From an uncultured Fidelibacterota bacterium (GTDB lineage: Bacteria; Fidelibacterota; Marinisomatia; Marinisomatales; Marinisomataceae): DNA of 64,000 bases. A program made the position numbers and the translations under genes. Shown in pieces: positions 4,376-61,679 of this stretch. The notes under the pieces were generated by a model. It ran no database searches, was not told the DNA's origin, and saw nothing but the letters and a program-made list of their open reading frames with translations. Within the stretch, counting starts at the first letter, position 1; the number at the start of each line of letters is the position of its first letter. Location: contig CACKGC010000005.1 in NCBI GenBank assembly GCA_902599655.1, positions 3,175 through 67,174 on the forward strand, written 5' to 3'.

Positions 4376-6312
4376 GAAATATTTTAGTAAATATTAAAGG
4401 TCTAAGCTCTCAAGAGTTTCCAAAAGGTATAACTCCACTTCAAATTATGACTAACACAAAAGGTGTATCTAAGGATTCTATAATTTGTAAAGTTGATGGC
4501 GTTCTTACTGATCTTTCTGTACAGCTTTCAAATGATTGTGACTTGCAATTTATGGATGCAAAAAGTAAAGACGGTCATAGTGTTCTTTTGCACAGCACTG
4601 CTCATTTAATGGCTCAGGCAGTAAAAAGATTATTTCCTAAAACTAAAGTAACTATTGGTCCATATCTAGATAATAGATTTTATTATGATTTTGATGTTGA
4701 AACTCCTTTCTCAGAAGAAGATTTAGCAAAAATTGAAGCAGAGATGGTTAATATATCTAATGAAAATCTTGAAATTATTCATGAAGTGAAATCTAGAGAT
4801 GAAGCTCTGAGCTTCTTTGATAAGATTGAAGAAGATTATAAAGTTGAAATCATTAACGACTTAGATAAAGATGAAATTTTAAAGGTGTATTCACAGGGTG
4901 AATTTACTGACCTTTGTAGAGGGCCGCATGTACCATCAACAGGCGCTATTAAGCACTTTAAGTTGTTATCATCTTCTGCAGCTTATTGGAGAGCTGATGA
5001 GAATAATCAAACTTTGCAACGCGTATATGGCACCTCATTCCAAAATGAAAAAGATTTAAAAAAATATCTTAATATGCTTGAAGAGCAAAAAAAACGTGAT
5101 CATAGAAAAATTGGGAAAGAATTAGATTTATATTTTTTTGATGATGAAGTAGGTCCTGGTCTACCTTTGTGGACACCTAATGGAGCTGTGATGATTGATG
5201 AATTGGAAGCTTTAGCTAAAGAAAAAGAGACAGCAAGCGGATATTTAAGAGTTAAAACTCCTCATTTAACGAAAGGAGAGCTTTATGAAAAGTCCGGTCA
5301 TTTAAAGCATTACATCTCCAGTATGTATCCAGCAATGGATGTTGATGGTATTGACTATTATATGAAACCAATGAACTGTCCTCATCATCACAAAATTTTT
5401 GCAAATACTCCTAAAAGCTATAGAGATCTACCATATAGATTGTCCGAATATGGAACATGTTATAGATATGAAAAATCGGGAGAATTATTTGGATTGATGC
5501 GTGTAAGAAGTATGCAGATGAATGATGCACATATTTATTGTACTGAAGAACAATTTAAAGATGAGTTTATTGGGGTTTGTAATCTTTATATGGATTATTT
5601 CAAAATCTTTGGTATTGAAAAATATGAAATGAGATTAAGTCTTCACGATCCAAAAGGGCTAGGTGAAAAATTTATTGATAATGCTGAATTATGGAAAAAA
5701 ACAGAAGACGATGTTAGAAATGCACTTAAAAGTGCTAATCTGAAATTTGTTGAGTCGGTTGGAGATGCTGCTTTTTATGGTCCTAAAATTGATGTTCAGG
5801 TTTGGAGTTCAATTGGAAGAGAGTTTACCTTAGCTACTAATCAGGTAGATTTTGCTGTTCCTGAAAGATTTGACTTAACATATAATGATAACGATGGTAC
5901 CTCGAAAACTCCTCTTTGTATTCATAGAGCACCTTTGGGAACACATGAACGTTTTATTGGGTTTTTAATCGAACATTTTGGAGGTAATTTCCCGCTTTGG
6001 TTAGCGCCAAAACAAGTAACTGTATTGCCTGTTTCTGATAAATATAATGATTATGCAGAAGAAGTGACAAAAGACCTCAAATCAAAAGGTATAAGAGCTT
6101 CCTTGGATAATCGATCAGAAAAAATAGGTTCAAAAATAAGGGATGCAGAATTACAAAAAATTAACATCATGATTATTGTCGGTGAAAAAGAAGTTGAGAA
6201 TAAAACCGTAACTGTCAGAAGAAGGTTCATAAAAGAGCAAAAAGAATTATCTTTAGGTAATTTTTCCAATGAAGTATTAACTGAAATTAACGAAAGGAGA
6301 GTTTCGAATTAA
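4372..6312 (+). CDS. thrS: Threonine--tRNA ligase
   Basis: 646 aa with TGS, editing and class II core motifs (HSTAHLMAQA, MNCPHHH, FRGPHV-like CRGPHVPST). GTG start overlaps the upstream TGA (GTGA). Confidence 0.97.
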   Translation: MRNILVNIKGLSSQEFPKGITPLQIMTNTKGVSKDSIICKVDGVLTDLSVQLSNDCDLQFMDAKSKDGHSVLLHSTAHLMAQAVKRLFPKTKVTIGPYLDNRFYYDFDVETPFSEEDLAKIEAEMVNISNENLEIIHEVKSRDEALSFFDKIEEDYKVEIINDLDKDEILKVYSQGEFTDLCRGPHVPSTGAIKHFKLLSSSAAYWRADENNQTLQRVYGTSFQNEKDLKKYLNMLEEQKKRDHRKIGKELDLYFFDDEVGPGLPLWTPNGAVMIDELEALAKEKETASGYLRVKTPHLTKGELYEKSGHLKHYISSMYPAMDVDGIDYYMKPMNCPHHHKIFANTPKSYRDLPYRLSEYGTCYRYEKSGELFGLMRVRSMQMNDAHIYCTEEQFKDEFIGVCNLYMDYFKIFGIEKYEMRLSLHDPKGLGEKFIDNAELWKKTEDDVRNALKSANLKFVESVGDAAFYGPKIDVQVWSSIGREFTLATNQVDFAVPERFDLTYNDNDGTSKTPLCIHRAPLGTHERFIGFLIEHFGGNFPLWLAPKQVTVLPVSDKYNDYAEEVTKDLKSKGIRASLDNRSEKIGSKIRDAELQKINIMIIVGEKEVENKTVTVRRRFIKEQKELSLGNFSNEVLTEINERRVSN

Positions 6313-8372: not shown

Positions 8373-10753
8373 TGAAAGTTTCATTACACTGGCTTAGAAG
8401 GTTTGTTGATTTTGACTTTACTGCTACAGAGTTAGCTGAAAAACTAACTATGAGAGGATTTGAGTCAGAAGTTGTATCAGATTTTGATTCTTTAGAAAAT
8501 TTAGTTGTTGGAGATGTTTTAACAGCAGAAAAGCACCCTGATGCAGACAAGCTTAAGTTATGTTCTGTTTCAGATGGATCAGAAACTTTTAGCGTTGTTT
8601 GTGGAGCTCCAAATGTCGATGCTGGTCAAAAAATAGTTTTTGCAAAAGTTGGAGCCGTTCTTCCAGGTGATTTCAAAATAGGTAAAGCTAAAATAAGAGG
8701 TGTAGAAAGTTTTGGAATGATTTGTTCTGAAAGAGAGCTTGGAATCTCAGAAGAACATGACGGTATTATGGTGTTAGATGAGTCTCATAAGGCAGGAACA
8801 CCTATTAAAGAAGTGTTAGGTCCATTATTTAATGCTATTGATATTGAAGTAACTCCTGATAAAGCTTTTGCATTAAGTCATAGAGGGATAGCAAGAGAAG
8901 TTGCGACAATTGTTGGATGCAAACTAAAAACTCCAATAAATAGTGTAAAATTAAATCCTAAGTCAAAAGACGTTGTATCAGTCGAATTAGATAAAAAAGG
9001 CGGCTGTACACGCTATATTGCGGGTACAATGAAAGGTGTAAAGGTAGGACCATCTCCAAAATGGCTTGCCGAATATTTGAAATCAGTTGGTCAGAAGAGT
9101 ATCAATAACCTTGTCGATATATCCAATTTTATGCTTTTGGAAATCGGTCATCCAACTCATGTCTTTGATTTAAAAAAATTAGCCAAACCTGGAATTAAGG
9201 TTTCTTGGGCAAAAATGGGTGAAAAATTTGATGCTTTGGATGAAGAAACATATGAATTAAGTACGGATCATATGGTGATTACGGATACAAAAAATACGGT
9301 TGCTTTAGCTGGTATTATTGGGGGAATGGATAGTTCTGTTACCGATTCAACCTCAGAAGTATTGATTGAGAGCGCTTATTTTGATCCAGTTGTTATCAGA
9401 AAAGGGTCAAAAAAATTAAATTTATTATCTGAGGCATCTAGAAGATTTGAGAGAGGTACAGACCCAAATGCTGCTTTAGAGGCATTCAATATGATTGTCC
9501 AGTTAATGCAAGAAGTTGCTGGTGGTACTTTAGAGTCTGTGATTACTGATGAATGTTCAATGAGCTTAGACAATACTTCTGTTGATTTATCATCTGAAAA
9601 ACTGCTCAAATATGCTGGACAAGAAATTCCTTCAAAAGACGTAGAATCTATATTGAAAGGACTTCACATAGATGCTAAAAAAACAAAAACTGGCTGGAAG
9701 TGTTCTATTCCTACATTTAGAACTGATTTAAAGGTAGAAACTGACCTTATTGAAGAGGTCTTTAGATGTTATGGTTACGACAATATTAAGTCTTCTTTTA
9801 ATTATTCTTCTATTATGCAATATGCAAACGATGAAGAATCTACTATTTCATCCTTAAAGCATCATTTATCTTCCTTAGGATTTCATCAATCTTATAATAA
9901 CTCACTTGAAGATGTAGAAGAAGTAAAGCTCTTTGGTAAAGATGCAGTTAGTGTTATGAATCCTTCCTCAGAAAGAATGAATACACTGCGAACAACTCTT
10001 CATTCAGGATTGTTGAAAAATTTAGATTTTAATTATCGTAATGGATCAGCAAATACCTTGATTTATGAATATGGAACAATTTTTGAAGGTAAGACTGACA
10101 AATTAGAGGACATAATTCAAAAAAGTAGTTTATCATGCTTAGTTCATGGTGATGTATTTTCAAAAAATGTACATTTTGATTCTATACCTGCTTCTTTTGC
10201 ATTTTTAAAAGGGGTGGCTTCCAATATTTTTGAAGACAAAAGACTAGGAATAAAAGTGAAGTTTTCAGAACAGAAACATCATTATTGTGATCCATATTTC
10301 TCAATTATTGACGGTAAAAAACAAGTCATTGGTGGTTTAGGTATCATTAAAGATTCATTATTAAAACAATTAGATATAGCTCATAAACATGAAGTTGTAG
10401 TGTTAGATGTAGATCCAGAGATTTTTACTGATTATGGTAGTTATAGCACCAAGGTAGAGGATATTGTAACCTTCCCAATTGTGCAAAGAGATTTAAATTT
10501 TAAAATGGACAGCAGTATTCAGGTTGGTGAAGTTGTCAAAACAATGAAATCAGTTAATCAGTCTATATTACAAAATGTAATTCCTGTTGATATTTATCAA
10601 TCAAAAAAGGATACATCAACTAAGGATGTTTTATTTTCACTGAACTTTCAATCACCTAAAAAAACACTTGAAGATAATGATGTAAATGCAATTATTACTG
10701 AAATTATAAATATTGTTTCTAAAAAATTTAATGCTAAATTAAGAGATAATTAG
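8372..10753 (+). CDS. pheT: Phenylalanine--tRNA ligase beta subunit
   Basis: 793 aa. N-terminus is MKVSLHWLRRFVDF..., with the tRNA-binding, B3/4, B5 and FDX-ACB layout. TAATG overlap with pheS. Confidence 0.96.
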   Translation: MKVSLHWLRRFVDFDFTATELAEKLTMRGFESEVVSDFDSLENLVVGDVLTAEKHPDADKLKLCSVSDGSETFSVVCGAPNVDAGQKIVFAKVGAVLPGDFKIGKAKIRGVESFGMICSERELGISEEHDGIMVLDESHKAGTPIKEVLGPLFNAIDIEVTPDKAFALSHRGIAREVATIVGCKLKTPINSVKLNPKSKDVVSVELDKKGGCTRYIAGTMKGVKVGPSPKWLAEYLKSVGQKSINNLVDISNFMLLEIGHPTHVFDLKKLAKPGIKVSWAKMGEKFDALDEETYELSTDHMVITDTKNTVALAGIIGGMDSSVTDSTSEVLIESAYFDPVVIRKGSKKLNLLSEASRRFERGTDPNAALEAFNMIVQLMQEVAGGTLESVITDECSMSLDNTSVDLSSEKLLKYAGQEIPSKDVESILKGLHIDAKKTKTGWKCSIPTFRTDLKVETDLIEEVFRCYGYDNIKSSFNYSSIMQYANDEESTISSLKHHLSSLGFHQSYNNSLEDVEEVKLFGKDAVSVMNPSSERMNTLRTTLHSGLLKNLDFNYRNGSANTLIYEYGTIFEGKTDKLEDIIQKSSLSCLVHGDVFSKNVHFDSIPASFAFLKGVASNIFEDKRLGIKVKFSEQKHHYCDPYFSIIDGKKQVIGGLGIIKDSLLKQLDIAHKHEVVVLDVDPEIFTDYGSYSTKVEDIVTFPIVQRDLNFKMDSSIQVGEVVKTMKSVNQSILQNVIPVDIYQSKKDTSTKDVLFSLNFQSPKKTLEDNDVNAIITEIINIVSKKFNAKLRDN

Positions 10754-10761
10754 AGGTTGAT

Positions 10762-11055
10762 ATGGAATCAAATAAAAAACTAGTAAACGTTAGAATATTT
10801 GGACAGGAGTATCCAATTAGAGCTTCTTCAAATGAGGATTATATTAAAGAAGTTGCAGCTTATGTAGATAAAAAAATGCATGAAGTTCAACGATCAGTTC
10901 CATCTTCTATGAATGCATCAAAAATAGCTATTTTAGCAGCCATGAATATTTCTGATGAATTATTTGGTGCTCGTCGAGGTGAATACTCATTTAAGGGTGA
11001 AGTTGAGTCCAAAGTAAAATCGTTAATTGAACGAATAGAAGAAATTACAGATTAG
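10762..11055 (+). CDS. zapA: Cell division protein ZapA
   Basis: 97 aa. VRIFGQEYPIRASSNEDYIKEVAAYVDKKM resembles ZapA family N-termini. Confidence 0.8.
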   Translation: MESNKKLVNVRIFGQEYPIRASSNEDYIKEVAAYVDKKMHEVQRSVPSSMNASKIAILAAMNISDELFGARRGEYSFKGEVESKVKSLIERIEEITD

Positions 11056-18154: not shown

Positions 18155-18661
18155 CTATTTTGAGTTACTGTAAGCAAGACTTTCGTCTTCGTCAACTTGA
18201 CTGAGCTGTGGTTCAGTCTCATCAATTAAAATATCTTCTACTGCAACTTCGCTTTGTAAAACTTCAAATACTTCGTTGGCGTAATTGGTAGAATAAAGAT
18301 TTCCATTCCATTCAAACGTATTTCCAGGACCTAGTTCGTTTCTAGCTGCTAAAAATGCGTCATTAAAAGAGGAAATAGGGGTAGTTTCAATTACTTCAAG
18401 TGATTCAACATCATCTTGAAATGGTGGCACTGTTTTTGTAGCCATGGCTTCATCATTGACTGAATTACCCATATTGGTGTTATTAACTAATGAGGTAATC
18501 TCTACATCCACAGTGCCTTCATTGCTAAAGCTTTCTGAGATATTATCGGACAGTTCTACTTCTTCGGATTGATCCATTAGAAAAAACAAGGAACCGATGC
18601 ACAAAATTACACCTGCTAACACGAATTTTTCAACATTATTATACATATTTTTTAACTCCAT
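18155..18661 (-). CDS. Hypothetical membrane-anchored protein, paralog A (shared SFxxAFxAARxELGPG motif)
   Basis: N-terminal TM helix FVLAGVILCIGSLFFL. Motif SSFNDAFLAARNELGPGNTFEWNGNLYSTNY at aa 98-127. Acidic tail. Confidence 0.6.
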   Translation of the reverse strand: MELKNMYNNVEKFVLAGVILCIGSLFFLMDQSEEVELSDNISESFSNEGTVDVEITSLVNNTNMGNSVNDEAMATKTVPPFQDDVESLEVIETTPISSFNDAFLAARNELGPGNTFEWNGNLYSTNYANEVFEVLQSEVAVEDILIDETEPQLSQVDEDESLAYSNSK

Positions 18662-18725: not shown

Positions 18726-19112
18726 TTATTTTGCAATTTTATTTAAAAACGTATAATTAATCTCGTATTTATCGCTATCTTTATACGATCTCACTGCTAC
18801 AACATCACCCAAGGTTTCTTCTGAAGTATAAGTTTTATTCTCTTTATTCACATCTATCACCTCATCTGCAATGACAATTACAGTTTCATAATAAAAATTG
18901 GTAGTAAAGTATCGATTATTCCACATAAAGATTTTACCAGGACCTAATTCTTTTCGTGCAGCTCTAAAGGCTTCTGAAAAGGAAGTTTGATCTTCTTTGC
19001 GGTATTGTTCAAAGTAATAGGTTCGTTCAATCATTCCATCTCTATCTATACGTTGATTATCATTAAAGTCAGAAGAGAGGAAGGTAAGAAAAATAAATAT
19101 ATTTGTAAGCAT
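18726..19112 (-). CDS. Hypothetical secreted protein, paralog B (shared SFxxAFxAARxELGPG motif)
   Basis: N-terminal hydrophobic segment. Motif TSFSEAFRAARKELGPGKIFMWNNRYFTTNF. Confidence 0.6.
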   Translation of the reverse strand: MLTNIFIFLTFLSSDFNDNQRIDRDGMIERTYYFEQYRKEDQTSFSEAFRAARKELGPGKIFMWNNRYFTTNFYYETVIVIADEVIDVNKENKTYTSEETLGDVVAVRSYKDSDKYEINYTFLNKIAK

Positions 19113-19196
19113 GTAGGCTCCTTTTATTCACCTCAAAATTACTTTCTTGTATCATATACAATTAAAAAAAAATAAAGTTTCAAAAATTATGGGAAC

Positions 19197-19211
19197 ATTT
19201 TAGATCTAAAT
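19197..19211. repeat. 15-nt repeat ATTTTAGATCTAAAT, copy 1 (contains 12-bp perfect palindrome TTTAGATCTAAA)
   Basis: Identical 15-mer recurs at 19272-19286. Palindrome core is at 19199-19210. Confidence 0.9.
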
Positions 19212-19233
19212 AAATATAATTAATGTATAATAT

Positions 19234-19245
19234 AAATTAAGATCA
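19234..19245. repeat. 12-nt AAATTAAGATCA, left arm of an inverted pair
   Basis: Its exact reverse complement TGATCTTAATTT is at 19315-19326. Confidence 0.85.
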
Positions 19246-19271
19246 ATTTTATTAATAAATTAACTTCAAAT

Positions 19272-19286
19272 ATTTTAGATCTAAAT
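19272..19286. repeat. 15-nt repeat ATTTTAGATCTAAAT, copy 2
   Basis: Identical to 19197-19211. Lies 12 nt upstream of a TTGACT hexamer. Confidence 0.9.
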
Positions 19287-19297
19287 TATTAAAATAC

Positions 19298-19326
19298 TTG
19301 ACTTTTAATAATTGTGATCTTAATTT
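19298..19326 (+). promoter_or_regulatory. Candidate sigma70-type promoter for the DGQHR cassette
   Basis: TTGACT (19298-19303), a 17-nt spacer, then TAATTT (19321-19326). The -10 is weak. The spacer and -10 overlap the TGATCTTAATTT repeat arm. GGAGG SD at 19348-19352 precedes the ATG at 19360. Confidence 0.3.
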
Positions 19327-19359
19327 AAAAGGTAAATTTAACTAATTGGAGGAAACAGT

Positions 19360-20564
19360 ATGTCATACACAATAGGAAAAGTTGGTAATTTTTTTCAGGA
19401 ACAAAATGAAATGATTACTATAGCAATAAATGTAAACGATTTAATAAATAATCATAAAATTTGTTATTATAATTCAGATCTAAATAGAGATGACGAAGAT
19501 CAAGGATATCAAAGGGAACCTAAAGCTCCTCGTTTATCAAAAATTGCAAAATCTTTAGAAAGAACAGTTAATAATGACACATTTTTACCAATTCCTACAG
19601 CTATAACGTTAAGTGATAGAGGGGTCAATTATAAATTTACCGATGGAAAATTAGATATCGTAGATGGAAAATTTAAACTAATTGATGGTCAACATAGAAT
19701 TCTTGCGTATCAAAGAGCTATTGAAGAATTAGGATGTGAAAGTCTTAAAACTCATTATTTACCATGCACAATAATTTTAATTGAAAAGCAAGATCATTTA
19801 ACCGAATTACAAAAAAAGAAATTGAATTAAAACATTTTATTACTATAAATGGTGAAGCTAAAGCTGTTCCTGTTGATTTGGGTAATGGTCTTTTAGTTGA
19901 TTTATATCAGTCAGGCGCATTAAAGAGCGATGAATTTGACGACGTAAAAATTATGTCTACTCAATTAATGATGATGTTGAATGATGAAAGTGGACCTTGG
20001 ATGGACAAGGTTATAATGCCTAATAAGTCAGCATATAAAAAATCTGAGTGGAATGTTGATCCAAAATTAAAACATTTAAGAGTTGTAAAATCAACAAGTC
20101 TAGTTAATTCTTTCAAGCCATTAATAAAATATCTTGAAAATAATGTTTTTACTCCAATGACAACAAGAGAAACTAAGTTAAAAACAGTTTATACAATTTT
20201 AGATAATTTTTGGACAGTGCTGAAAATGAACATGCCTGCCGCAATAGATGAGGCGAGAGATCATGTTTTACAAAAGTCAGTAGGTATCTTTTCGATGCAT
20301 TCTTTGCTTATTGAGCTTTGTAAGGTAATTAAAGCTAGCGGAAATGAGCTATTAACAGATATAGCCAGTTTTGAAAAAAGACTAAATAGTGATGAACTAG
20401 AATTTATGAGTCATGATTTTTGGTCGAATGACAAAGAAAATCCTGGTGAAGCTACAAAATATGGTAATATGAAAGGTTTTAAAAGGTTGTCAGAAGTAAT
20501 GCTTAAAGAAGTAGTAGAAGCTTCTGAAAATCAAGACCTAAATAATGCTACTGAGGTATTTTAA
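19360..20564 (+). CDS. DGQHR-domain protein (DndB-like, ParB/sulfiredoxin fold), reading frame broken at an A7 tract
   Basis: Two ORFs, 19360-19830 and 19878-20564. The first has GYQREPKAPRLSKIAKSLE and LIDGQHRILAYQ. The second frame is open from 19785 and reads ...KKEIELKHFITINGEAKAVPVDLG, the F-x-x-I-N segment expected after DGQHR. The frames join by a -1 shift at CAAAAAAAG (19810-19818). Confidence 0.7.
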
Positions 20565-20609
20565 TAAAATAAAAATAGTTGTTAAATAAGCGACTTGTCA
20601 TCGCAAAAA

Positions 20610-20663
20610 GGGTAGTTAGAATTTTCTCATCTCCTTTTGTTATTGTTTGTTAACTAACTACCC
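20610..20663. repeat. Perfect 10-bp inverted repeat GGGTAGTTAG / CTAACTACCC with a 34-nt loop
   Basis: Arms at 20610-20619 and 20654-20663, in the 130-nt gap between the DGQHR gene and the nuclease gene. A-runs flank it on both sides. Confidence 0.85.
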
Positions 20664-20694
20664 AAAAATTTTAATAATTTTTAATGGAGGAAAA

Positions 20695-21624
20695 ATGACC
20701 GATAAAAACTCAATTTTAGATCAATTCATTATTCAATCAAATACTCAAGATTTGAAATATGCTCATTATCCAAAAAAATATAACGATCTTGATATGAAGA
20801 TATCATTTGGTATGGGTGTTCCAGCAAGGATTCCTTGGATAGCATTTATAGGAAATGAAATGCTTGTGAGTAATGGATTTTATCCAGTTTATTTATATTA
20901 TAAAGATCTTAAAATGCTAATTCTGTCTTATGGTATAAGTGAAACTTCTGAATATGAACAATCATGGCCTGATAGTATAATTTCTAATAAGACAAAAATA
21001 AAAGACTTTTTCGAAGATAATAGTAAAGTTCATAGATATGGTAGTTCATTCGTTCATCGTGCATACACTATTGATGTAAAAGGTAATAATGTAGAATACA
21101 AGCTATATGAAAATGATAAAATTTTAACTCAAAATGAATTAATAAATGATTTAGATGAAATAATTCATGAATATAAAAATTCAATAAATATTGAAATTAA
21201 AAATGAAGATTCTTTAATAAGTCAGGGAAAGTTTTATATGGAAAAACACCTTGAAGAGTTTATCATAACTAATTGGAATGAAATAGATCTTGGAAGTAGA
21301 TATGATTTAATTTATGATGAAGGTGAATTAGTAAGTCAACAATTCAGAACAGATATAGGATTTATTGATATTTTAGCAAAAGATAAAAAAGATGGATCGT
21401 ATGTAGTTATAGAATTGAAAAAAAATCAAACAAGCGATGATACAATAGGGCAAATTGCAAGATATATGGGATGGATTAGAGATCACAAAAAAGATGAGGA
21501 TGTTAAAGGAATAATAATAGCTTCAGAATTTACTAAAAAGTTAAAATATGCAATTAAATACGTAAAAAATATTGATGTTTTATCTTATGAAATTAATTTT
21601 TCATTAAACGAGGTTAAAAGATGA
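20695..21624 (+). CDS. Fusion protein: McrB-N-like (DUF3578/MrcB_N) DNA-reader domain plus NucS/DUF91-like PD-(D/E)XK nuclease domain
   Basis: ATG at 20695 is preceded by GGAGG. The N-terminal half has ISFGMGVPARIPWIAFIGNEMLVSNGFYPVYLYYKDLKMLILSYG. The C-terminal half has TDIGFIDILAKDKKDGSYVVIELKKNQTSDDTIGQIARYMGWI...KGIIIASEF. The ORF track start at 20647 (TTG) is less likely. Confidence 0.7.
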   Translation: MTDKNSILDQFIIQSNTQDLKYAHYPKKYNDLDMKISFGMGVPARIPWIAFIGNEMLVSNGFYPVYLYYKDLKMLILSYGISETSEYEQSWPDSIISNKTKIKDFFEDNSKVHRYGSSFVHRAYTIDVKGNNVEYKLYENDKILTQNELINDLDEIIHEYKNSINIEIKNEDSLISQGKFYMEKHLEEFIITNWNEIDLGSRYDLIYDEGELVSQQFRTDIGFIDILAKDKKDGSYVVIELKKNQTSDDTIGQIARYMGWIRDHKKDEDVKGIIIASEFTKKLKYAIKYVKNIDVLSYEINFSLNEVKR

Positions 21625-22271
21625 AGTTATCACAAGAAAAAAACGAAATATTAGATAAATTGAACTTTATAAGCATTGACAAAATTTCAAAAAAAACTGT
21701 TCCAGATAGTCCAGGAATCTATTTTTTTAGATTAAAAGATAATTCACAATTTAATACATTTGAAAATGATAAAAATGACAGAATATCATATATAGGCAAG
21801 CATGAGAGCAGTTTAAGAGAAAGATTATTTGAAAATCATTTAAATATTTATAATAATTTTTCAACATTTAGAAGGTCAGTTGGATCTATATTGAAACAGA
21901 ACTTAAGTTTAAGTGCTTATCCAAGAATTAGCAAAAAAACAGGTAAAATTAATAGCTATTCAATATTTAGTTTTGCAAAATTAAAAAAAATAAAAGAAGA
22001 TAAAGGTGTTTTCATTTATGATTTTGATAATTTTGATGATGAAATTAAATTGAATGAATGGATTATTTATAATTTTCAGTTTTCATTTCTAAAAGTTAAT
22101 GATATGCTAATAGAAGATGATCTTAAAAAAAATGAGCATGAAATGAGACATATGTTTAAACCTGCATTAAATTGTAACCACGATGATGATTATAATGAAT
22201 TCAGAGATCGCATCAAACGTCTTAGAAAGATATGTGCAAATGAATGTAGATTAAATTTTAAGGAAAATTAA
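21621..22271 (+). CDS. GIY-YIG-family nuclease
   Basis: PGIYFFRLKD...(about 20 aa)...ISYIGKHESSLRERLFENH, followed later by NEHEMRHMFKPALN (conserved Glu and Asn positions). ATGA overlap with the upstream gene. Confidence 0.65.
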   Translation: MKLSQEKNEILDKLNFISIDKISKKTVPDSPGIYFFRLKDNSQFNTFENDKNDRISYIGKHESSLRERLFENHLNIYNNFSTFRRSVGSILKQNLSLSAYPRISKKTGKINSYSIFSFAKLKKIKEDKGVFIYDFDNFDDEIKLNEWIIYNFQFSFLKVNDMLIEDDLKKNEHEMRHMFKPALNCNHDDDYNEFRDRIKRLRKICANECRLNFKEN

Positions 22272-22274
22272 TAT

Positions 22275-22302
22275 TTTACGCATAATATATATTATGTATA
22301 AT
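22275..22302. other. dif: Candidate dif site (XerC/XerD chromosome dimer resolution site)
   Basis: TTTACGCATAA-TATATA-TTATGTATAAT. By hand alignment it matches E. coli dif (GGTGCGCATAATGTATATTATGTTAAAT) at 22/28 and B. subtilis dif (ACTTCCTAGAATATATATTATGTAAACT) at 20/28 with 15 contiguous identities. Both reference sequences are from memory. The inner arms CATAA/TTATG are inverted. It lies in a 40-nt intergenic gap near the +/- gene-orientation switch. Confidence 0.65.
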
Positions 22303-22311
22303 TAATGACAT

Positions 22312-22980
22312 ATGAATAATACACTAGGAAAAACAACAAGACTAATGCTACTTACCTACCTTGGTTTATTAACCCTGGCAGGTTTTTTCTATGGTGGTGG
22401 TAACTATGTCGACAAAACTACACCCTATTATAATTTTTTTAGAAATTTTATAAGTGATCTTGGCCGTACAACAAGTCATTCTGGTGATGATAATACTATA
22501 TCTATTGTTTTGTTCTCAATTGGTATGATGGTTCAATTAATTGCAGTTTTAATATATCTTGTTAAAGCAGCTAATTACTTTTCTAGGGAATTCCCTAAAA
22601 TTAGTTTATTAGCTAAATGCTCTGCAATTTTTGGCTCTATAAGTCTTTTAGGGGTTATTTTAACACCAGCAGATGTTCCTTCGTTATATGCATTACATAT
22701 TTTCTTTGCAAATTCAGTATTTAACGGTGCTTTTGTAACATTAGGCATATATTCTTACTTATTTTACTCTAAAGGTCTTAAAAACGTCACTTATACCCTC
22801 TTTTTATGTTCCTTAATCATTCTTGGATATATAATATTTCTTGAAATTGGTCCTGAACCCTGGAAATCAATTCAATCACTAACTTTTCATGCAACCTATC
22901 AAAAGGTAGCTGTTTTAAGCTTAATTGGAACAGTTTGGGTTATGTCTAAAGGTACAGATCTACTTGACGACAAAATTTAA
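22312..22980 (+). CDS. Hypothetical polytopic membrane protein
   Basis: 222 aa with about six hydrophobic helices. The 3' end overlaps the convergent leuS 3' end by 21 nt. Confidence 0.6.
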
Positions 22981-58121: not shown

Positions 58122-59801
58122 TTAATTCAAATTTGAGGTGTAGTCAATTCTTAGACCATCTTCAAAAGCTTGCACATATCTACAAACACCGTTTGTACAA
58201 TCTAAACCTCCTCTAACAGATCCGTAAAAGAGTTGTAAAGTATCATCGGAATCAAACTTATAAGAAACACCTATTGACTCCCATGAATTTGATGAATCAA
58301 AGTTATCATTAGTATTATCATTCAATTTTGATTCATCTGCATTCGTTGTTTCAAAAGAAAAATTGAATGTCCAGCTCTGGTTATAGTTGGCTGAAAATGA
58401 GATAAATCTATTTATCTGCTCTTTTTTACTTAATAATGAATGAAATGAATATAAATTGTCAATTCCATCTACATCAGAAATAATTGTTCTCTTGAAACCT
58501 GTTTTGAGTTTTTGATATTCAAACTGAACATCATAGCTCCATTGAGAATTTGTCTTAAAACTTAACAAAAAAGGAAAGGTTTGGGATTTTGTAACTTCAA
58601 AAGATTGAAATTCTGGTCCGTTTGTCAAAACATTAAATACTTTATTTTGAAAATCTATTCCTGTTTTATAGTAAATATCTCCACTGGAGCTATAACCACT
58701 AAACTCTAAATAGGTTTCTTCAAATGGATATGAACTATATTTAGATGATGGAAAGGTAGAATTTTTCTTACTTAGCCAATCTCCATTCCAATTTTGATAC
58801 CAATCTTTTGTACTACTTGACTTTAGATAATTTATGGCAACAATATTATACTCATTTAATGGCCCTGAAATTTGAAGTTCAATTCCAATTTCATCATTCA
58901 AATTTACCTCTTGAGATGTTCTGCTTAGTAAGCGAAATGTATGAAGATAGTAACCAGTTGGAGATCTTTGTACATCAAGAGCATTTCCAAAATTATCTGA
59001 TTGATTATGCCTTATATTAGGATTATTGATATCCATTTTCATTGACCTGTATCCAGTTGTAATTGACCAGTTTTTAAAAAAGTTTGTATTAGATAAATAG
59101 AATCCGGAACCTTGTATATTTTCATCAAAATCTTTTTTTTCAGAATCCTTTCTAACAAACGACAAATAAATATCTCCAGCAGAATAGCTTTTCTCGAACC
59201 TAAAGTTTGATAAACTGTGATGAATATCTCTGCTGTCCTCTTCAACACTTAATATAGATAAACCATAATTAAAACCTGGAAAATTATGATTTATATCAGC
59301 TCCGTAGATAAATTGATCAATGAAATAATTTGGAACTCTTGGGTCATAATTTGCATGACTTGTTATGCTTTTACTAATTGCTAAATCTCCTGCAATTAGA
59401 TTTATCAAAAAATCAGAACTGGAATACTTAAGTCCTAAACCATTTGCACCAGTATCAAAATCTAAATTTTGGTAATCTAACTGATTTAAAATCAATCCTC
59501 TACCCCATGTTTGATAAATATCTCCCAATTCCATTGAGAAATTTTCATTATAATATCCAATTAAATACTTTCTTAAACCTCTTTCATCCAAACCTATCTC
59601 AGGAGGATTGCTATTTTCAAAAGAAAAGATTCCTTCAATCATATAGTTGGTTTTAAATAGTGTAATTTTAGAATCAAGAATTAATTCATTATAATTATAG
59701 TTATTGCTACTATTGCCATAACGAACTTCAAGCTCATTTGAAATATTTATTTGAGAAAATAATGTTGAAAAAAACAATAAATATATTACCTGTTTACTCA
59801 A
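58122..59801 (-). CDS. Putative outer-membrane beta-barrel protein (possibly DUF6029-like)
   Basis: Signal peptide, 559 aa, rich in Y/N/S/F alternating strands. Cys pair CTNGVCRY near the C-terminus. Confidence 0.5.
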   Translation of the reverse strand: MSKQVIYLLFFSTLFSQINISNELEVRYGNSSNNYNYNELILDSKITLFKTNYMIEGIFSFENSNPPEIGLDERGLRKYLIGYYNENFSMELGDIYQTWGRGLILNQLDYQNLDFDTGANGLGLKYSSSDFLINLIAGDLAISKSITSHANYDPRVPNYFIDQFIYGADINHNFPGFNYGLSILSVEEDSRDIHHSLSNFRFEKSYSAGDIYLSFVRKDSEKKDFDENIQGSGFYLSNTNFFKNWSITTGYRSMKMDINNPNIRHNQSDNFGNALDVQRSPTGYYLHTFRLLSRTSQEVNLNDEIGIELQISGPLNEYNIVAINYLKSSSTKDWYQNWNGDWLSKKNSTFPSSKYSSYPFEETYLEFSGYSSSGDIYYKTGIDFQNKVFNVLTNGPEFQSFEVTKSQTFPFLLSFKTNSQWSYDVQFEYQKLKTGFKRTIISDVDGIDNLYSFHSLLSKKEQINRFISFSANYNQSWTFNFSFETTNADESKLNDNTNDNFDSSNSWESIGVSYKFDSDDTLQLFYGSVRGGLDCTNGVCRYVQAFEDGLRIDYTSNLN

Positions 59802-60270
59802 AAATTACCTGCTCAATAATATTTTTAATTTCAACTTCATCTCCAATATTAAAACCTCTTTTTCTATAAATAATTTGATTATTTTTTGTGATTAGAGTTA
59901 ATGGAATTGGTTGAGCATTAAATGATCGCGAAAGTTTTTGATTGTAGTCCATAACGATATGATATTTATTATCAATGGGATATTTTTTTGTATTTACTAA
60001 TCTTTTTACTTTTGCAATTTCACCAGCTTTATCAGTGTTAATTAGGATAACAGATAAATTTTCATAATCTTTAACAAAAACATTAATCTTATCAATTTCT
60101 TTTATACAAGGAAGACACCAAGTAGCCCAAAAACTTATCAAAGTTACTTCACTAGTTAAATTAATTAAATTGCTTGATTGATTATTTAAAAGCTTTACAG
60201 GATAGTTAGGTAGATTATCTTGAGGAAACAAATTGCAAACAAGTAGACAAAATAAAATTATTTTTTTCAT
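59794..60270 (-). CDS. TlpA/ResA-like thiol:disulfide oxidoreductase
   Basis: Signal peptide plus the FWATWCLPC thioredoxin motif. Confidence 0.85.
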   Translation of the reverse strand: MKKIILFCLLVCNLFPQDNLPNYPVKLLNNQSSNLINLTSEVTLISFWATWCLPCIKEIDKINVFVKDYENLSVILINTDKAGEIAKVKRLVNTKKYPIDNKYHIVMDYNQKLSRSFNAQPIPLTLITKNNQIIYRKRGFNIGDEVEIKNIIEQVIFE

Positions 60271-61679
60271 TCAACTTCTGAAAGTGTATGCCTTAACCTA
60301 ATTTGACAGATATCTTTTCCTAATAATAGAATTAAATCAAAAATTCCAGGTCCGAAAGGTATACCACTAAGAGCCACTCTGATAGGTTTCATTACTTGTC
60401 CAATAGCTACATCATGTTGCTCCATTAGATTTTCAAAAATGTTTTCTAGCTCTACCCTGGACCAATTTTCAATTGAGGTTAAAGCGGATTTGAAATCTTT
60501 AATTATTGCAATAGACTTATCATTGTAGGTTTTGCTCAATAAATCAGAATCATAATCTAATTTGTCAGTAAAAAATATTTCAGACATAGATGCAATTTCG
60601 GTAATTGTTTTAGATCTATCTTTTATTAATTTTACAACTTCCTTCAAATATTCCCATTCTAAACCATCTCCCCATCCCGAGTTTAAAGCATAAATTTCAT
60701 TCATTAAATCTCTCACGCTCATTTCTGATAAATGTTGTTGAGAAATCCATAATAATTTCTTTTCATCAAAAACGGCTGATTTTTTTTGTACTTGTTTGAA
60801 TTGAAAGCTATTAATCAGTTCATTTTCATCAAAAATTTCCTTGTCTGAATCTGGATTCCAACCTAAAAGAGATAGATAATTTAATATCACCTTAGAAGTA
60901 AACCCTTTCTCTTTATACTCCTGAACATTGGTTGCTGCATGCCTTTTGCTTAATCTTTTTTTATCAGAACCTAAGATCATTGGTAAGTGTGCAAAAATTG
61001 GAACATCTAACTCTAATGCCTTATATACTAGTATTTGTTTAGGAGTATTTGCTAAGTGATCATCACCTCTGATAACGTGAGAAATTTTCATATCTGCATC
61101 GTCAACTGCTACAACAAAGTTATAAGTTGGCGATCCATCAGAACGAGCAATAATAAAATCGTCTAGATCTTTATTTTGAACCTTTATAGAGCCATATACG
61201 AGATCATTAAATTCGGTTTCACCTTTTGGAACTTTAAGTCTTACAGTAAAAGATTTTCCCTCTTCAATTAATGCTTTTTCTTTTTCAGGAGATAAATTCC
61301 TAAATGTTTGAGGTACACGAAAAATTTCTTTTCTTTGTTCAGACTCTTTTCTGAGGTTATCTAATTCTTCTTTTTGAAGAAAACACTTATAAGCTGTTCC
61401 ATCTTTAAGCATTTTAGCAACCATTTCCTGATGTCTGTCATTATTTTTTGATTGCAAGACAATATCTTCGTCCCAATTTAACCCTAACCACTTTAGCGCA
61501 TCCGTAATTTGATCTATATACTCATCTTTGGAACGTTCAAGGTCGGTATCTTCAATTCTTAAAAGAAATTTACCATTATTTTGTTTAGCAAATAGCCAAT
61601 TGAAAAGAGCTGTTCTGGCGCCACCGATATGTAAATATCCAGTTGGACTTGGAGCGAATCTTACTCGAGGATTCTTCAT
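60267..61679 (-). CDS. gltX: Glutamate--tRNA ligase
   Basis: MKNPRVRFAPSPTGYLHIGGARTALFNWL (HIGH) and KLSKR (KMSKS). The ORF track start at 61790 reads through the tRNA-Ser gene and is rejected. Confidence 0.93.
   Translation of the reverse strand: MKNPRVRFAPSPTGYLHIGGARTALFNWLFAKQNNGKFLLRIEDTDLERSKDEYIDQITDALKWLGLNWDEDIVLQSKNNDRHQEMVAKMLKDGTAYKCFLQKEELDNLRKESEQRKEIFRVPQTFRNLSPEKEKALIEEGKSFTVRLKVPKGETEFNDLVYGSIKVQNKDLDDFIIARSDGSPTYNFVVAVDDADMKISHVIRGDDHLANTPKQILVYKALELDVPIFAHLPMILGSDKKRLSKRHAATNVQEYKEKGFTSKVILNYLSLLGWNPDSDKEIFDENELINSFQFKQVQKKSAVFDEKKLLWISQQHLSEMSVRDLMNEIYALNSGWGDGLEWEYLKEVVKLIKDRSKTITEIASMSEIFFTDKLDYDSDLLSKTYNDKSIAIIKDFKSALTSIENWSRVELENIFENLMEQHDVAIGQVMKPIRVALSGIPFGPGIFDLILLLGKDICQIRLRHTLSEVE

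What the first reader, a model, noticed from the sequence alone, without database searches (positions are those of the whole stretch)
19360..22271. Candidate undescribed three-gene nuclease defence cassette: DGQHR (DndB-like) + McrB-N/NucS-like fusion + GIY-YIG
Three co-directional genes form the cassette. Gene 1 is a DGQHR-domain ParB/sulfiredoxin-fold protein (GYQRE..., LIDGQHRILAYQ, FITINGEAKAV). This family is known from DndB in phosphorothioation clusters and from DpdB-like proteins in 7-deazaguanine clusters. Gene 2 combines an N-terminal domain matching the McrB-N/DUF3578 pattern used by type IV restriction enzymes to read modified bases (SFGMGVPARIPWIAF...GFYPVYLYY...LSYG) with a NucS/DUF91-like PD-(D/E)XK nuclease (IDILAKD...VVIELKK...GQIARYMGW). 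Gene 3 is a GIY-YIG nuclease (GIYFF...YIGK...R...E...N) that overlaps gene 2 by ATGA. No methyltransferase, dnd/ssp/dpd modification genes, ATPase/helicase or integrase accompanies them. The DGQHR protein therefore appears outside its known modification contexts, paired with two different nucleases. I do not recognise this combination as a named defence system. The cassette looks more AT-rich than its surroundings on spot counts: 8 and 12 G+C in the 60-nt rows at 21121 and 21181, versus 22 in a thrS row at 5281. It is embedded between housekeeping blocks and next to a dif-like site.
Basis: partly seen in the sequence, partly recalled or inferred. Interest (0 to 1): 0.85.

Follow-up and report, generated by a model that had tools for sequence, protein, structure and literature searches.

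The report
Mosaic restriction genes beside chromosomal dif
The three genes are real and defence-related, but they are three independently shuffled modules filling a hypervariable restriction slot next to the chromosome's dif site in a marine Marinimicrobia bacterium, and only the middle gene, a predicted one-protein methylcytosine-dependent restriction enzyme, looks like a self-sufficient unit.

Summary
Window 19360-22271 carries three co-directional genes:
- Gene 1 is a DGQHR/DndB-like gene, broken by a 1-nt deletion in an A8 run.
- Gene 2 is a 309-aa McrB-N + NucS-like PD-(D/E)xK fusion.
- Gene 3 is a 216-aa GIY_YIG_2 nuclease that overlaps gene 2 by ATGA.
The block has 25.8% GC against 32-33% in the flanks. 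It ends exactly at a conserved dif site (22275-22302), at the GC-skew switch.

The interpretation as one three-gene system is not supported. The trio occurs only in one narrow Marinimicrobia lineage. Within that lineage, gene 3 is about 57% identical where genes 1 and 2 are 97-98% identical. One of the outer genes is often damaged, while gene 2 is always intact.

Gene 2 homologues (more than 1,700) occur in many bacterial and archaeal phyla. None of 50 species-representative genome loci has a DGQHR or GIY_YIG_2 neighbour.

In sister strains the same slot next to dif holds Type I R-M systems, C5 methyltransferases, GmrSD, AIPR and others, or is nearly empty. DGQHR orthologues and GIY_YIG_2 genes pair with other cargo there.

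Best reading: gene 2 is an autonomous Type IV enzyme with an EcoK McrB-like 5mC reader. Gene 1 is probably a ParB-like regulator or accessory. Gene 3 is an independent nuclease that elsewhere is usually paired with C5 methyltransferases.

The parts
19113..19359 (+). Left end of the variable slot and the upstream region of gene 1. It holds two copies of the perfect 12-nt palindrome TTTAGATCTAAA (19199-19210 and 19274-19285) and a TTGACT -35-like hexamer (19298-19303). These are candidate operators and promoter.
   Evidence: The repeats are (D1, I9, I21). The proximal palindrome, the TTG(A/C)(C/T)T hexamer and a GATC-containing element are conserved upstream of DGQHR orthologues that are only 74-98% identical, while the rest of the spacer is not. 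The operator function is inferred.
19360..20564 (+). Gene 1: a DGQHR (DndB/DpdB-like, ParB-fold) protein. It is 401 aa when one A is restored. Here it is split into 156-aa and 228-aa ORFs.
   Evidence: The AlphaFold model has pLDDT 85.7. Its best PDB neighbour is the pNOB8 ParB-N domain, and only weakly (E=0.033).
19811..19818 (+). Frameshift site. The run is A7 here and A8 in five related contigs. The A7 allele creates an in-phase A_AAA_AAG heptamer (19812-19818), where a -1 slip would give the same protein as the A8 allele.
   Evidence: Leaky decoding is an inference; no stimulatory element was looked for beyond reading the sequence.
20565..20694 (+). Spacer between genes 1 and 2. It holds a promoter-like site (TTGTCA-16-TAGAAT, 20595-20622), a small hairpin (20590-20604) and a GGAGG ribosome-binding site before the ATG at 20695.
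   Evidence: These are consensus matches only. The scan found 37 promoter-like sites against 32 expected by chance, so this is weak evidence on its own.
20695..21624 (+). Gene 2: a 309-aa fusion of an McrB-N (DUF3578/ADAM) 5-methylcytosine reader and a NucS-like PD-(D/E)xK nuclease. It is the predicted autonomous Type IV restriction endonuclease.
   Evidence: The family profile matches the EcoK McrB-N crystal structure 3SSC at 2.6e-26 from residue 1. W48, Y63 and L67 align with the 3SSC residues W49, Y64 and L68. D225, E240 and K242 are invariant in 21 sequences.
21621..22271 (+). Gene 3: a 216-aa GIY_YIG_2 nuclease whose start overlaps the gene 2 stop (ATGA).
   Evidence: G32, Y34, Y57, G59, R68 and H73 are invariant, E172 is nearly invariant (at least 90%), and the Asn of the P-x-L-N motif is conserved in most of 51 family members. 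The AlphaFold model has pLDDT 93.5, with a lineage-specific beta insertion at about residues 100-137.
22275..22302 (.). The dif site (XerC/XerD-type 11-6-11 arrangement, 20 of 28 bases identical to E. coli dif). It is the invariant right boundary of the variable slot.
   Evidence: It lies at the GC-skew switch.

Best explanation
The block 19113-22274 is the complete content, in this strain, of a hypervariable restriction/defence slot. The slot lies between a conserved minus-strand gene (18726-19112) and the chromosomal dif site of a marine Marinimicrobia (SAR406) genome. Its three genes are separate modules, not one machine.

1. Gene 2 is the working unit: a single-chain, NTP-independent, modification-dependent (Type IV) restriction endonuclease. 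Its N-terminal McrB-N domain flips out and recognises methylated cytosine in incoming DNA (5mC, possibly also 4mC or 5hmC as in EcoK McrB). The fused NucS-like PD-(D/E)xK domain (D225/E240/K242) cuts nearby. The host tolerates it because it carries no C5 methyltransferase. Sister strains carry C5 methyltransferases in the same slot, so phage or DNA coming from them would be marked and cut.
2. Gene 1 is a ParB-fold DGQHR protein. It most likely acts as a DNA-binding regulator or accessory of whatever restriction cargo lies downstream, as DndB does for dnd genes. It is dispensable here because it is frameshifted.
3. Gene 3 is an independent GIY-YIG nuclease. In sister islands this kind of gene is usually partnered with a C5 methyltransferase. 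It sits here as an orphan resident at the dif-proximal edge.

Shown: the domain identities, conservation of the residues aligning with the 3SSC pocket and of the catalytic residues, the independent assortment, and the slot architecture. Inferred: the substrate specificity, the regulator role and the status of gene 3.
For: Gene 2 is autonomous:
- It has more than 1,772 homologues at 55-60% identity across bacteria and archaea.
- None of 50 species-representative loci has GIY_YIG_2 or DGQHR within 7 kb.
- Among 146 neighbouring proteins, no family occurs in more than 7.
- It stands alone at the same slot next to dif in L004 and follows a DEAD helicase in L126.
- Its nuclease half equals the PADLOC single-gene candidate PDC-S02.

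Reader and nuclease:
- The family profile matches 3SSC (EcoK McrB-N) at 2.6e-26. W48, Y63 and L67 align with W49, Y64 and L68.
- D225, E240 and K242 are invariant.
- NucS structures 2VLD and 5GKE are hit by the C-terminal domain.

Host compatibility: the window holds no C5 methyltransferase, and none of the gene 2 islands has one, while 16 of 44 unbiased sister islands do.

Modularity:
- Window against L070: gene 1 98%, gene 2 97.1%, gene 3 56.5% identical.
- The gene 3 start codon is ATG->ATA in L070-72, and gene 1 is frameshifted here. Gene 2 is intact everywhere.
- DGQHR orthologues (75% identical) precede two C5 methyltransferases plus NOV_C, or unknown cargo.
- GIY_YIG_2 follows hsdMSR or C5 methyltransferases. 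GIY and C5 co-occur in 5/6 islands against 11/38 without GIY (p=0.018).

Slot:
- The dif site is the constant right edge.
- The u128/u168 genes form the left edge, and L136 is nearly empty.
- The Pfam census of 113 slot proteins is dominated by R-M and Type IV families.

Regulator idea:
- Palindromes at the gene 1 promoter are conserved.
- DndB is described in the literature as a regulator (title of PMC4507180) and as a potential negative regulator (PMC3632139).
Against: - The ATGA overlap and the GAGG site before gene 3 suggest translational coupling of genes 2 and 3. That would be odd for unrelated modules.
- DndB-like genes and GIY_YIG_2 co-occur in three different arrangements in this lineage (window, L013, L132). 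This hints at some functional link.
- No experiment exists for this family. The one PDC-S02 representative tested gave no protection against T7, T5 or T4, although those phages carry no 5mC.
- The position aligning with McrB Y41 is Met here.
- The neighbour analysis used crude ORF calls and narrow in-house HMMs for part of the test.
- The genome-contig scan returns only sequences that match two peptide patterns.
Confidence: 0.65

Rival explanations
1. Genes 2 and 3 form a two-nuclease operon that works as a unit. For example, the McrB-N/NucS protein finds methylated DNA, and the two nucleases each cut one strand or extend the damage. Gene 1 is separate.
For: - The ATGA overlap, with a GAGG site before gene 3, is present in the window and in L001.
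- The spacer before gene 2 has a promoter-like site of its own.
- The catalytic residues of both nucleases are intact.
Against: - Gene 2 lacks any GIY-YIG neighbour in L004, L126 and 50 other genomes.
- In L070-72 the gene 3 start codon is lost while gene 2 stays 97% identical.
- The gene 3 allele switches (56.5% identical) across a junction where gene 2 is 97% identical. The pair is therefore not co-inherited.
Confidence: 0.13
2. One reading: the three genes form one new tripartite defence system (DGQHR sensor or loader plus two effectors).
For: - The trio recurs in at least 8 metagenome contigs from different ocean samples.
- DndB-like and GIY_YIG_2 genes co-occur in two other arrangements (L013, L132).
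- No named system matches.
Against: - All trio copies belong to one lineage, with gene 2 at least 93.5% identical.
- Each gene is found without the others at the same slot.
- None of 50 loci outside the lineage has the partners.
- Gene 1 or gene 3 is damaged in different members.
Confidence: 0.08
3. The block is a decaying remnant. An ancestral DGQHR + C5 methyltransferase + GIY-YIG restriction-modification cassette, as still seen in sister strains, lost its methyltransferase when the 5mC-dependent gene 2 came in. Genes 1 and 3 are now eroding passengers.
For: - DndB-like genes, C5 methyltransferases and GIY_YIG_2 occur together in L013 and L132, and C5 + GIY in L152, L155 and L158.
- Gene 1 is frameshifted here and gene 3 has lost its start codon in L070-72.
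- C5 methylation and a 5mC-dependent nuclease cannot coexist (established logic of Type IV systems).
Against: - Gene 3 here has an intact frame and intact catalytic residues.
- The A7 allele may still be decoded by a -1 slip.
- No methyltransferase fragment is visible in the spacers.
- This rival overlaps largely with the best explanation and differs only in history.
Confidence: 0.1
4. The block is an IMEX-type element, or a dif module, inserted by XerC/XerD at dif.
For: - The block abuts the XerC-arm side of dif in every strain, and the slot can be nearly empty.
- The best non-self match to dif in the whole window (8 of 28 mismatches) lies at 19220, at the left edge of the block.
Against: - Eight mismatches is barely better than the background of 9-10.
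- That sequence is not conserved in L070 and L073, which carry the same trio.
- No second dif with 4 or fewer mismatches to the 24-nt core was found in any of the dif-anchored islands screened.
- No phage or plasmid relatives were found.
Confidence: 0.04

Closest known systems
EcoKMcrBC (Type IV restriction, E. coli K-12)
   Same: The gene 2 N-terminal domain is the same reader domain as McrB-N (DUF3578/ADAM). It aligns from residue 1 with 3SSC at 2.6e-26. W48, Y63 and L67 align with W49, Y64 and L68.
   Different: There is no AAA+ GTPase domain and no McrC partner. The position aligning with Y41 is Met. The NCBIfam McrB equivalog score is 78.9 bits against a cut-off of 637.
Single-chain reader-nuclease Type IV enzymes (MspJI/AspBHI, EVE-PD-(D/E)xK and SRA-nuclease fusions)
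   Same: The logic is the same: a modified-base flipping domain fused to a PD-(D/E)xK nuclease, with no NTPase and no cognate methyltransferase. EVE fusions of this kind are described in PMC7641849. The rest rests on general knowledge.
PADLOC candidate PDC-S02 (single-gene phage-defence candidate)
   Same: The C-terminal 155 residues match PDLC04824 at 3.6e-43. The same NucS-domain proteins occur on Acinetobacter, Burkholderia and other plasmids.
   Different: The profile's N-terminal 150 positions do not match, so gene 2 carries a different N-terminal reader. PDC-S02 is unvalidated: one representative gave no protection against T7, T5 or T4.
NucS/EndoMS mismatch endonuclease
   Same: The C-terminal catalytic domain is the same (NucS_C 2.6e-14; 2VLD 1.7e-05).
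   Different: The NucS N-terminal mismatch-binding domain is absent. The equivalog scores are 58.8 and 40.1 bits against cut-offs of 216 and 252.
DndB (phosphorothioation) and DpdB (7-deazaguanine) DGQHR proteins
   Same: The QR pair, DGQHR and FxxxN motifs are present, and TIGR03187 scores above its cut-off. The N-terminal domain is ParB-like (weak).
   Different: No dnd, ssp or dpd genes are adjacent. The equivalog scores are 29.5 against 300 (DpdB) and 24.8 against 450 (DGQHR_dnd_1). Orthologues sit in front of C5 methyltransferase/nuclease cargo or unknown cargo.
GIY-YIG Type II restriction enzymes (Eco29kI, Cfr42I, Hpy188I)
   Same: The superfamily and size (about 200 aa) are the same. 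In sister islands GIY_YIG_2 lies directly after a C5 methyltransferase (L152, L155, L158). That gene layout resembles known GIY-YIG restriction-modification systems.
   Different: No sequence hit to any GIY-YIG structure was found except a marginal UvrC match (E=0.15), and there was no Foldseek hit. Here the gene has no methyltransferase. A relative (P0151) sits alone on the opposite strand in phage-like gene arrays, like a free-standing homing endonuclease.
Defence islands / hotspots at the replication terminus; IMEX elements at dif
   Same: This is a strain-variable block of restriction genes at a fixed chromosomal address, bounded by dif.
   Different: There is no second dif-like site, integrase or phage genes. 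The exchange mechanism is unknown.

Membership tests
Type IV (modification-dependent) restriction endonuclease - gene 2 | A dedicated modified-base recognition domain | tested here: met
   MrcB_N 1.1e-11. The McrB N-terminal match is 3e-22. 3SSC is matched at 2.6e-26, and the residues aligning with W49, Y64 and L68 are conserved.
Type IV (modification-dependent) restriction endonuclease - gene 2 | An endonuclease domain with intact catalytic motif | tested here: met
   NucS_C 2.6e-14. D225, E240 and K242 are invariant in 21 sequences.
Type IV (modification-dependent) restriction endonuclease - gene 2 | No cognate methyltransferase; the host lacks the target modification | tested here: inconclusive
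   There is no C5 methyltransferase in the slot or in the 64-kb window. The rest of the genome and the actual methylome were not available.
Type IV (modification-dependent) restriction endonuclease - gene 2 | Cleavage depends on modified DNA | not testable with these tools
   This needs biochemistry or in vivo restriction assays.
McrBC | AAA+ GTPase domain in McrB and an McrC partner gene | tested here: not met
   Gene 2 is 309 aa with only two domains. The McrB equivalog score is 78.9 against 637. No McrC-like neighbour is present.
NucS/EndoMS | NucS N-terminal domain plus the C-terminal nuclease, scoring above the equivalog cut-off | tested here: not met
   Only the C-terminal domain matches. 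The scores are 58.8 against 216 and 40.1 against 252 bits.
PADLOC PDC-S02 | Full-length match to a PDC-S02 profile | tested here: inconclusive
   The match is strong (3.6e-43) but covers only profile positions 152-306 of 308.
DGQHR domain family (TIGR03187) - gene 1 | QR pair, DGQHR pentapeptide and FxxxN motif; score above the cut-off | tested here: met
   71.7 bits against a cut-off of 58.85 on the frame-restored protein. G49, Y50, Q51, R52, D109-R113, F160 and N164 are invariant.
DndB / DpdB proper | Equivalog-level score and adjacent dndCDE / dpdA genes | tested here: not met
   The scores are 24.8 against 450 and 29.5 against 300. The neighbours are gene 2 and housekeeping genes.
GIY-YIG nuclease superfamily - gene 3 | GIY and YIG strands, and conserved Arg, His/Tyr, Glu and Asn | tested here: met
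   PF20815 1.7e-16. G32, Y34, Y57, G59, R68 and H73 are invariant, E172 is nearly invariant, and the Asn of the P-x-L-N motif is conserved in most of 51 sequences.
Type II R-M (GIY-YIG REase with cognate methyltransferase) - gene 3 | Adjacent cognate methyltransferase | tested here: not met
   There is no methyltransferase in the block or the window. The feature is met in sister islands L152, L155 and L158.
IMEX / dif module | Element flanked by dif and a second dif-like site | tested here: not met
   The best second site has 8 of 28 mismatches and is not conserved. No sister island screened has a second site with 4 or fewer mismatches to the 24-nt core.
One conserved three-gene defence system | The three families co-occur across unrelated genomes | tested here: not met
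   0 of 50 genome loci have the partners. The trio occurs only in one lineage.

The most novel reading that the evidence does not exclude
The GIY_YIG_2 gene parked at the dif-proximal edge of the slot is a free-standing, homing-type endonuclease. It would cut GIY-less alleles of the slot, and repair by gene conversion would drag the neighbouring restriction cargo along. A selfish nuclease would then be the engine that shuffles defence cassettes between Marinimicrobia strains at dif, with the DGQHR gene as the conserved regulator at the other edge.
Probability: 0.1. Interest if true: 0.75.

Novelty: new variant of a known kind. Interest (0 to 1): 0.4.

Why it matters
- Gene 2 represents a very widespread family (more than 1,700 clusters in bacteria, CPR lineages and archaea) with a new Type IV architecture. 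The EcoK McrB methylcytosine reader is wired directly to a NucS-type nuclease, with no GTPase motor. I found no experimental study of this family. If it is active, it would be a compact 5mC-dependent enzyme of possible use in epigenetic mapping. It would also give the PADLOC candidate PDC-S02 a mechanism.
- The locus shows methylating and methylation-dependent cassettes alternating at one address next to dif in an abundant uncultured ocean lineage. This is a clear natural example of strain-level restriction polymorphism.
- The result also removes a false lead: the trio should not be catalogued as a three-gene defence system.

Tried and rejected
- Second dif site / IMEX: I scanned the window and all islands. 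The best extra site has 8 of 28 mismatches at 19220 and is not conserved. Rejected as unsupported.
- Foldseek against the PDB: the high-confidence gene 3 model gave no hit with E<2. The gene 1 model gave only a weak ParB-N hit. Neither result was informative for function.
- PDB sequence searches: gene 1 gave nothing. Gene 3 gave only a marginal UvrC match.
- Viral contigs: no relatives of gene 1 or gene 2. The GIY alignment was too diverse to scan.
- Phage and plasmid collections: no full-length gene 2 match.
- Literature: nothing was found for PF20815 or GIY_YIG_2.
- Rfam and tRNA scans: nothing is near the block.
- HEPN domain in the gene 1 C-terminus (proposed for DndB in PMC3632139): no HMM or fold support was obtained. 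Left open.
- Exclusivity of gene 2 and C5 methyltransferases: the data are consistent with it, but there are only three independent gene 2 islands, too few for a test.


Full report
**What is in the sequence**

Window 19360-22271 holds three co-directional genes.
- Gene 1 (19360-20564) is split into a 156-aa ORF and a 228-aa ORF. The break is at an A7 run at 19811-19817. Adding one A gives a 401-aa protein.
- An intact 401-aa version, 98% identical, occurs on five independent marine metagenome contigs, all with A8. The window therefore carries a 1-nt deletion, or an assembly error.
- The A7 allele happens to place a dnaX-type A_AAA_AAG heptamer in phase. A -1 slip there would produce exactly the A8 protein. 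Some full-length product may therefore still be made. This is an inference.
- Gene 2 (ATG at 20695, GGAGG upstream, to 21624) encodes 309 aa.
- Gene 3 (21621-22271) encodes 216 aa, and its ATG overlaps the gene 2 TGA.
- The block has 25.8% GC against 32-33% on both sides.
- It ends 3 nt before a 28-nt dif site (22275-22302). Cumulative GC skew peaks there, which places it at the replication terminus.

**Domain calls**

- Gene 1 scores above the NCBIfam cut-off for the DGQHR domain (71.7 against 58.85 bits). It scores far below the DpdB and Dnd-associated equivalog cut-offs.
- Its QR, DGQHR and FxxxN motifs are invariant in 18 homologues.
- Gene 2 matches MrcB_N and NucS_C. A profile of 21 family members matches the crystal structure of the E. 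coli McrB N-terminal domain (3SSC) at 2.6e-26, from residue 1.
- W48, Y63 and L67 align with W49, Y64 and L68 of 3SSC and are invariant or nearly so. From my own knowledge of the McrB-N structure, not checked here, these three residues hold the flipped methylcytosine. The position aligning with Y41 is Met.
- The nuclease half has invariant D225, E240 and K242. It matches the PADLOC single-gene candidate PDC-S02 at 3.6e-43, but only over the C-terminal half of that profile.
- Gene 3 matches Pfam GIY_YIG_2 at 1.7e-16. G32, Y34, Y57, G59, R68 and H73 are invariant, E172 is nearly invariant, and the Asn of the P-x-L-N motif is conserved in most of 51 family members.

**Organism and locus**

- Members of the 90% clusters of neighbouring window proteins are named Candidatus Marinimicrobia / Neomarinimicrobiota.
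- I anchored on the membrane-protein gene just right of dif (22312-22980) and retrieved 79 related metagenome loci.
- In every related locus that reaches this point, the dif sequence TTT(A/G)CGCA(T/G)AATATATATTATGTATAAT is conserved. DNA similarity to the window begins exactly there.
- To the left, the conserved flank is DoxX, a glutaredoxin-like gene and one or two minus-strand genes (18155-18661 and 18726-19112).
- Between that flank and dif the content differs from strain to strain. In one contig (L136) the gap is about 400 nt with only a 64-aa ORF.
- The three genes are therefore the whole content of a variable slot (19113-22274).
- A Pfam census of 113 non-redundant proteins from the last three ORFs before dif, across 47 islands, gives:
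  - C5 DNA methylase: 15
  - GIY_YIG_2: 6
  - AIPR: 5
  - GmrSD_N: 5
  - ResIII: 5
  - N6/N4 methylase: 4
  - EcoRI methylase, D12 methylase, Type I S subunit and Eco57I: 3 each
  - AspBHI_N and MrcB_N: 2 each
- This is a restriction/defence hotspot.

**Do the three genes belong together?**

- Gene 2 has more than 1,772 homologues at about 55-60% identity. A scan of one genome per species found 50 loci. They come from Pelagibacteraceae, SAR86, CPR phyla, Bathyarchaeota, Woesearchaeota, Nitrososphaerales and others.
- None of these loci has a GIY_YIG_2 or DGQHR ORF within 7 kb.
- Their 146 nearest neighbours share no dominant family. The top is AAA_22, with 7.
- Inside the Marinimicrobia slot, gene 2 is the only defence-like gene in L004. 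That locus is at the same position, with gene 2 65% identical. In L126 gene 2 follows a DEAD-box helicase.
- DGQHR orthologues, 75% identical, sit in front of two C5 methyltransferases plus a NOV_C nuclease-like protein (L064-67). Others sit in front of two proteins of unknown function (L075-79).
- L065 ends at the same dif flank as L009. L009 carries hsdM-hsdS-hsdR plus GIY_YIG_2 instead.
- GIY_YIG_2 genes follow Type I R-M systems (L005, L009), a C5 methyltransferase (L152, L155, L158), or a C5 methyltransferase plus a giant DndB-fusion protein (L013, L132).
- In the unbiased anchor set, GIY_YIG_2 co-occurs with C5 methylases in 5 of 6 islands, against 11 of 38 islands without it (one-sided Fisher p=0.018).
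- The full trio is found only in contigs where gene 2 is at least 93.5% identical to the window (L001 and L070-72; partial in L002-003, L073 and L074).
- Within that lineage the genes are not co-inherited. Against L070, gene 1 is 98% identical, gene 2 is 97.1% and gene 3 is only 56.5%.
- In L070-72 the gene 3 ATG is ATA, and the first in-frame ATG lies after the GIY strand.
- So gene 1 is damaged in the window, gene 3 is damaged in L070-72, and gene 2 is intact everywhere.

**Most likely mechanism**

- Gene 2 is a self-sufficient Type IV restriction endonuclease. An McrB-type reader flips out and recognises methylated cytosine, and the fused NucS-type PD-(D/E)xK domain cuts. No GTPase motor or McrC is involved.
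- This matches the logic of MspJI-like and EVE-nuclease fusions (PMC7641849), with a different reader.
- The host has no C5 methylase in the slot or in the 64-kb window. 16 of 44 sister islands do have one. DNA or phage arriving from those strains would therefore be marked for cutting.
- Gene 1 is most simply a ParB-fold DNA-binding regulator or accessory. DndB is reported as a regulator of the dnd genes (PMC4507180 title; PMC3632139).
- Two perfect TTTAGATCTAAA palindromes flank a TTGACT hexamer upstream of gene 1. The proximal set is conserved in orthologous loci whose spacers otherwise diverge.
- Gene 2 has a promoter-like site of its own in the 130-nt spacer (weak evidence). This fits its independence from the broken gene 1.
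- The role of gene 3 is the least certain. Its usual partner in this slot is a C5 methylase, which suggests a restriction-type or methylation-linked nuclease. It is tolerated without a methylase, however.
- Its closest relative outside the lineage sits alone on the opposite strand in phage-like arrays of small ORFs (L161-165). That is the typical setting of a free-standing homing endonuclease.

**Caveats**

- The ATGA overlap of genes 2 and 3, seen in the window and in L001, argues for co-translation. I therefore keep a two-gene unit as the main rival.
- DndB-like and GIY_YIG_2 genes co-occur in three arrangements, which may reflect a link I cannot resolve.
- My neighbour tests rest on simple ORF calling, on in-house HMMs backed by Pfam scans, and on collections searched through short peptide patterns.
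- No experiment exists for this family. The one PDC-S02 representative tested gave no protection against T7, T5 and T4 (bioRxiv 10.1101/2024.09.26.614923). That result says little about a 5mC-dependent enzyme.
- Structure searches added little.

**Verdict**

- The interpretation as a new three-gene system is not supported.
- What remains of interest is a widespread, uncharacterised Type IV architecture (McrB-N fused to a NucS-type nuclease), and a strain-variable restriction slot next to dif in an abundant marine lineage.
- Interest is 0.4. Novelty: a new variant of a known kind.

Noticed in passing
window 22275-22302 and the whole-window skew: A conserved dif site (TTTACGCATAATATATATTATGTATAAT) lies exactly where cumulative GC skew peaks. 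The window therefore spans the replication terminus. Genes on both sides point toward it.
   Followed up: yes
window 19812-19818: The A7 frameshift allele creates an in-phase A_AAA_AAG heptamer, the dnaX-type -1 slippery sequence. A -1 slip or transcriptional slippage would restore the exact A8 protein.
   Followed up: partly
window 18155-18661 (-) and 18726-19112 (-): Two adjacent minus-strand genes of unknown function are paralogues. They share a C-terminal motif (F..AF..AR.ELGPG..F.WN...Y.T) and form the conserved left border of the variable slot in related strains.
   Followed up: partly
L152:4169-5768, L155:2-1593, L158:164-1781: C5 DNA methyltransferase genes are directly followed by short (169-201 aa) GIY_YIG_2 genes. 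These are candidate two-gene Type II R-M systems with a GIY-YIG nuclease of a family that has no solved structure.
   Followed up: partly
L013:1878-4388, L082:2193-5168, L104:451-3036, L132:5772-8663, L156:862-3477: Giant (836-997 aa) proteins with an internal DndB/DGQHR domain, plus a faint NERD match in L013 and a faint Schlafen/AlbA match in L104, sit in the same slot. In L013, L082 and L132 they lie next to C5 methyltransferases. They may be the restriction component of an uncharacterised R-M type.
   Followed up: no
L136:652-1052: This is a nearly empty version of the slot. About 400 nt and one 64-aa ORF lie between the left-flank gene and dif.
   Followed up: partly
L017, L018, L020, L053 (Pelagibacteraceae): Gene 2 homologues in SAR11 genomes lie downstream of ORFs of 591 aa and 607-612 aa. 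Pfam counts suggest these are dnaG and rpoD, which would point to a different fixed insertion address in that lineage.
   Followed up: no
L161-L165: The closest GIY_YIG_2 relative outside the lineage (P0151, 34% identical) is a lone gene on the opposite strand inside arrays of small ORFs. The arrays include an N6/N4 methylase and M48 peptidases. The setting looks like a phage with a free-standing homing endonuclease.
   Followed up: no
window 59001-61000 and 10001-11000: Other stretches have GC below 0.30 (0.268, 0.291 and 0.289). These may be further acquired segments.
   Followed up: no
window vs L001 (gene 2 93.5%, leuS 82.2%, DUF998-like 76.1%): Gene 2 is more similar between these two lineages than their core genes are. 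This suggests recent horizontal exchange of gene 2 among Marinimicrobia strains.
   Followed up: partly
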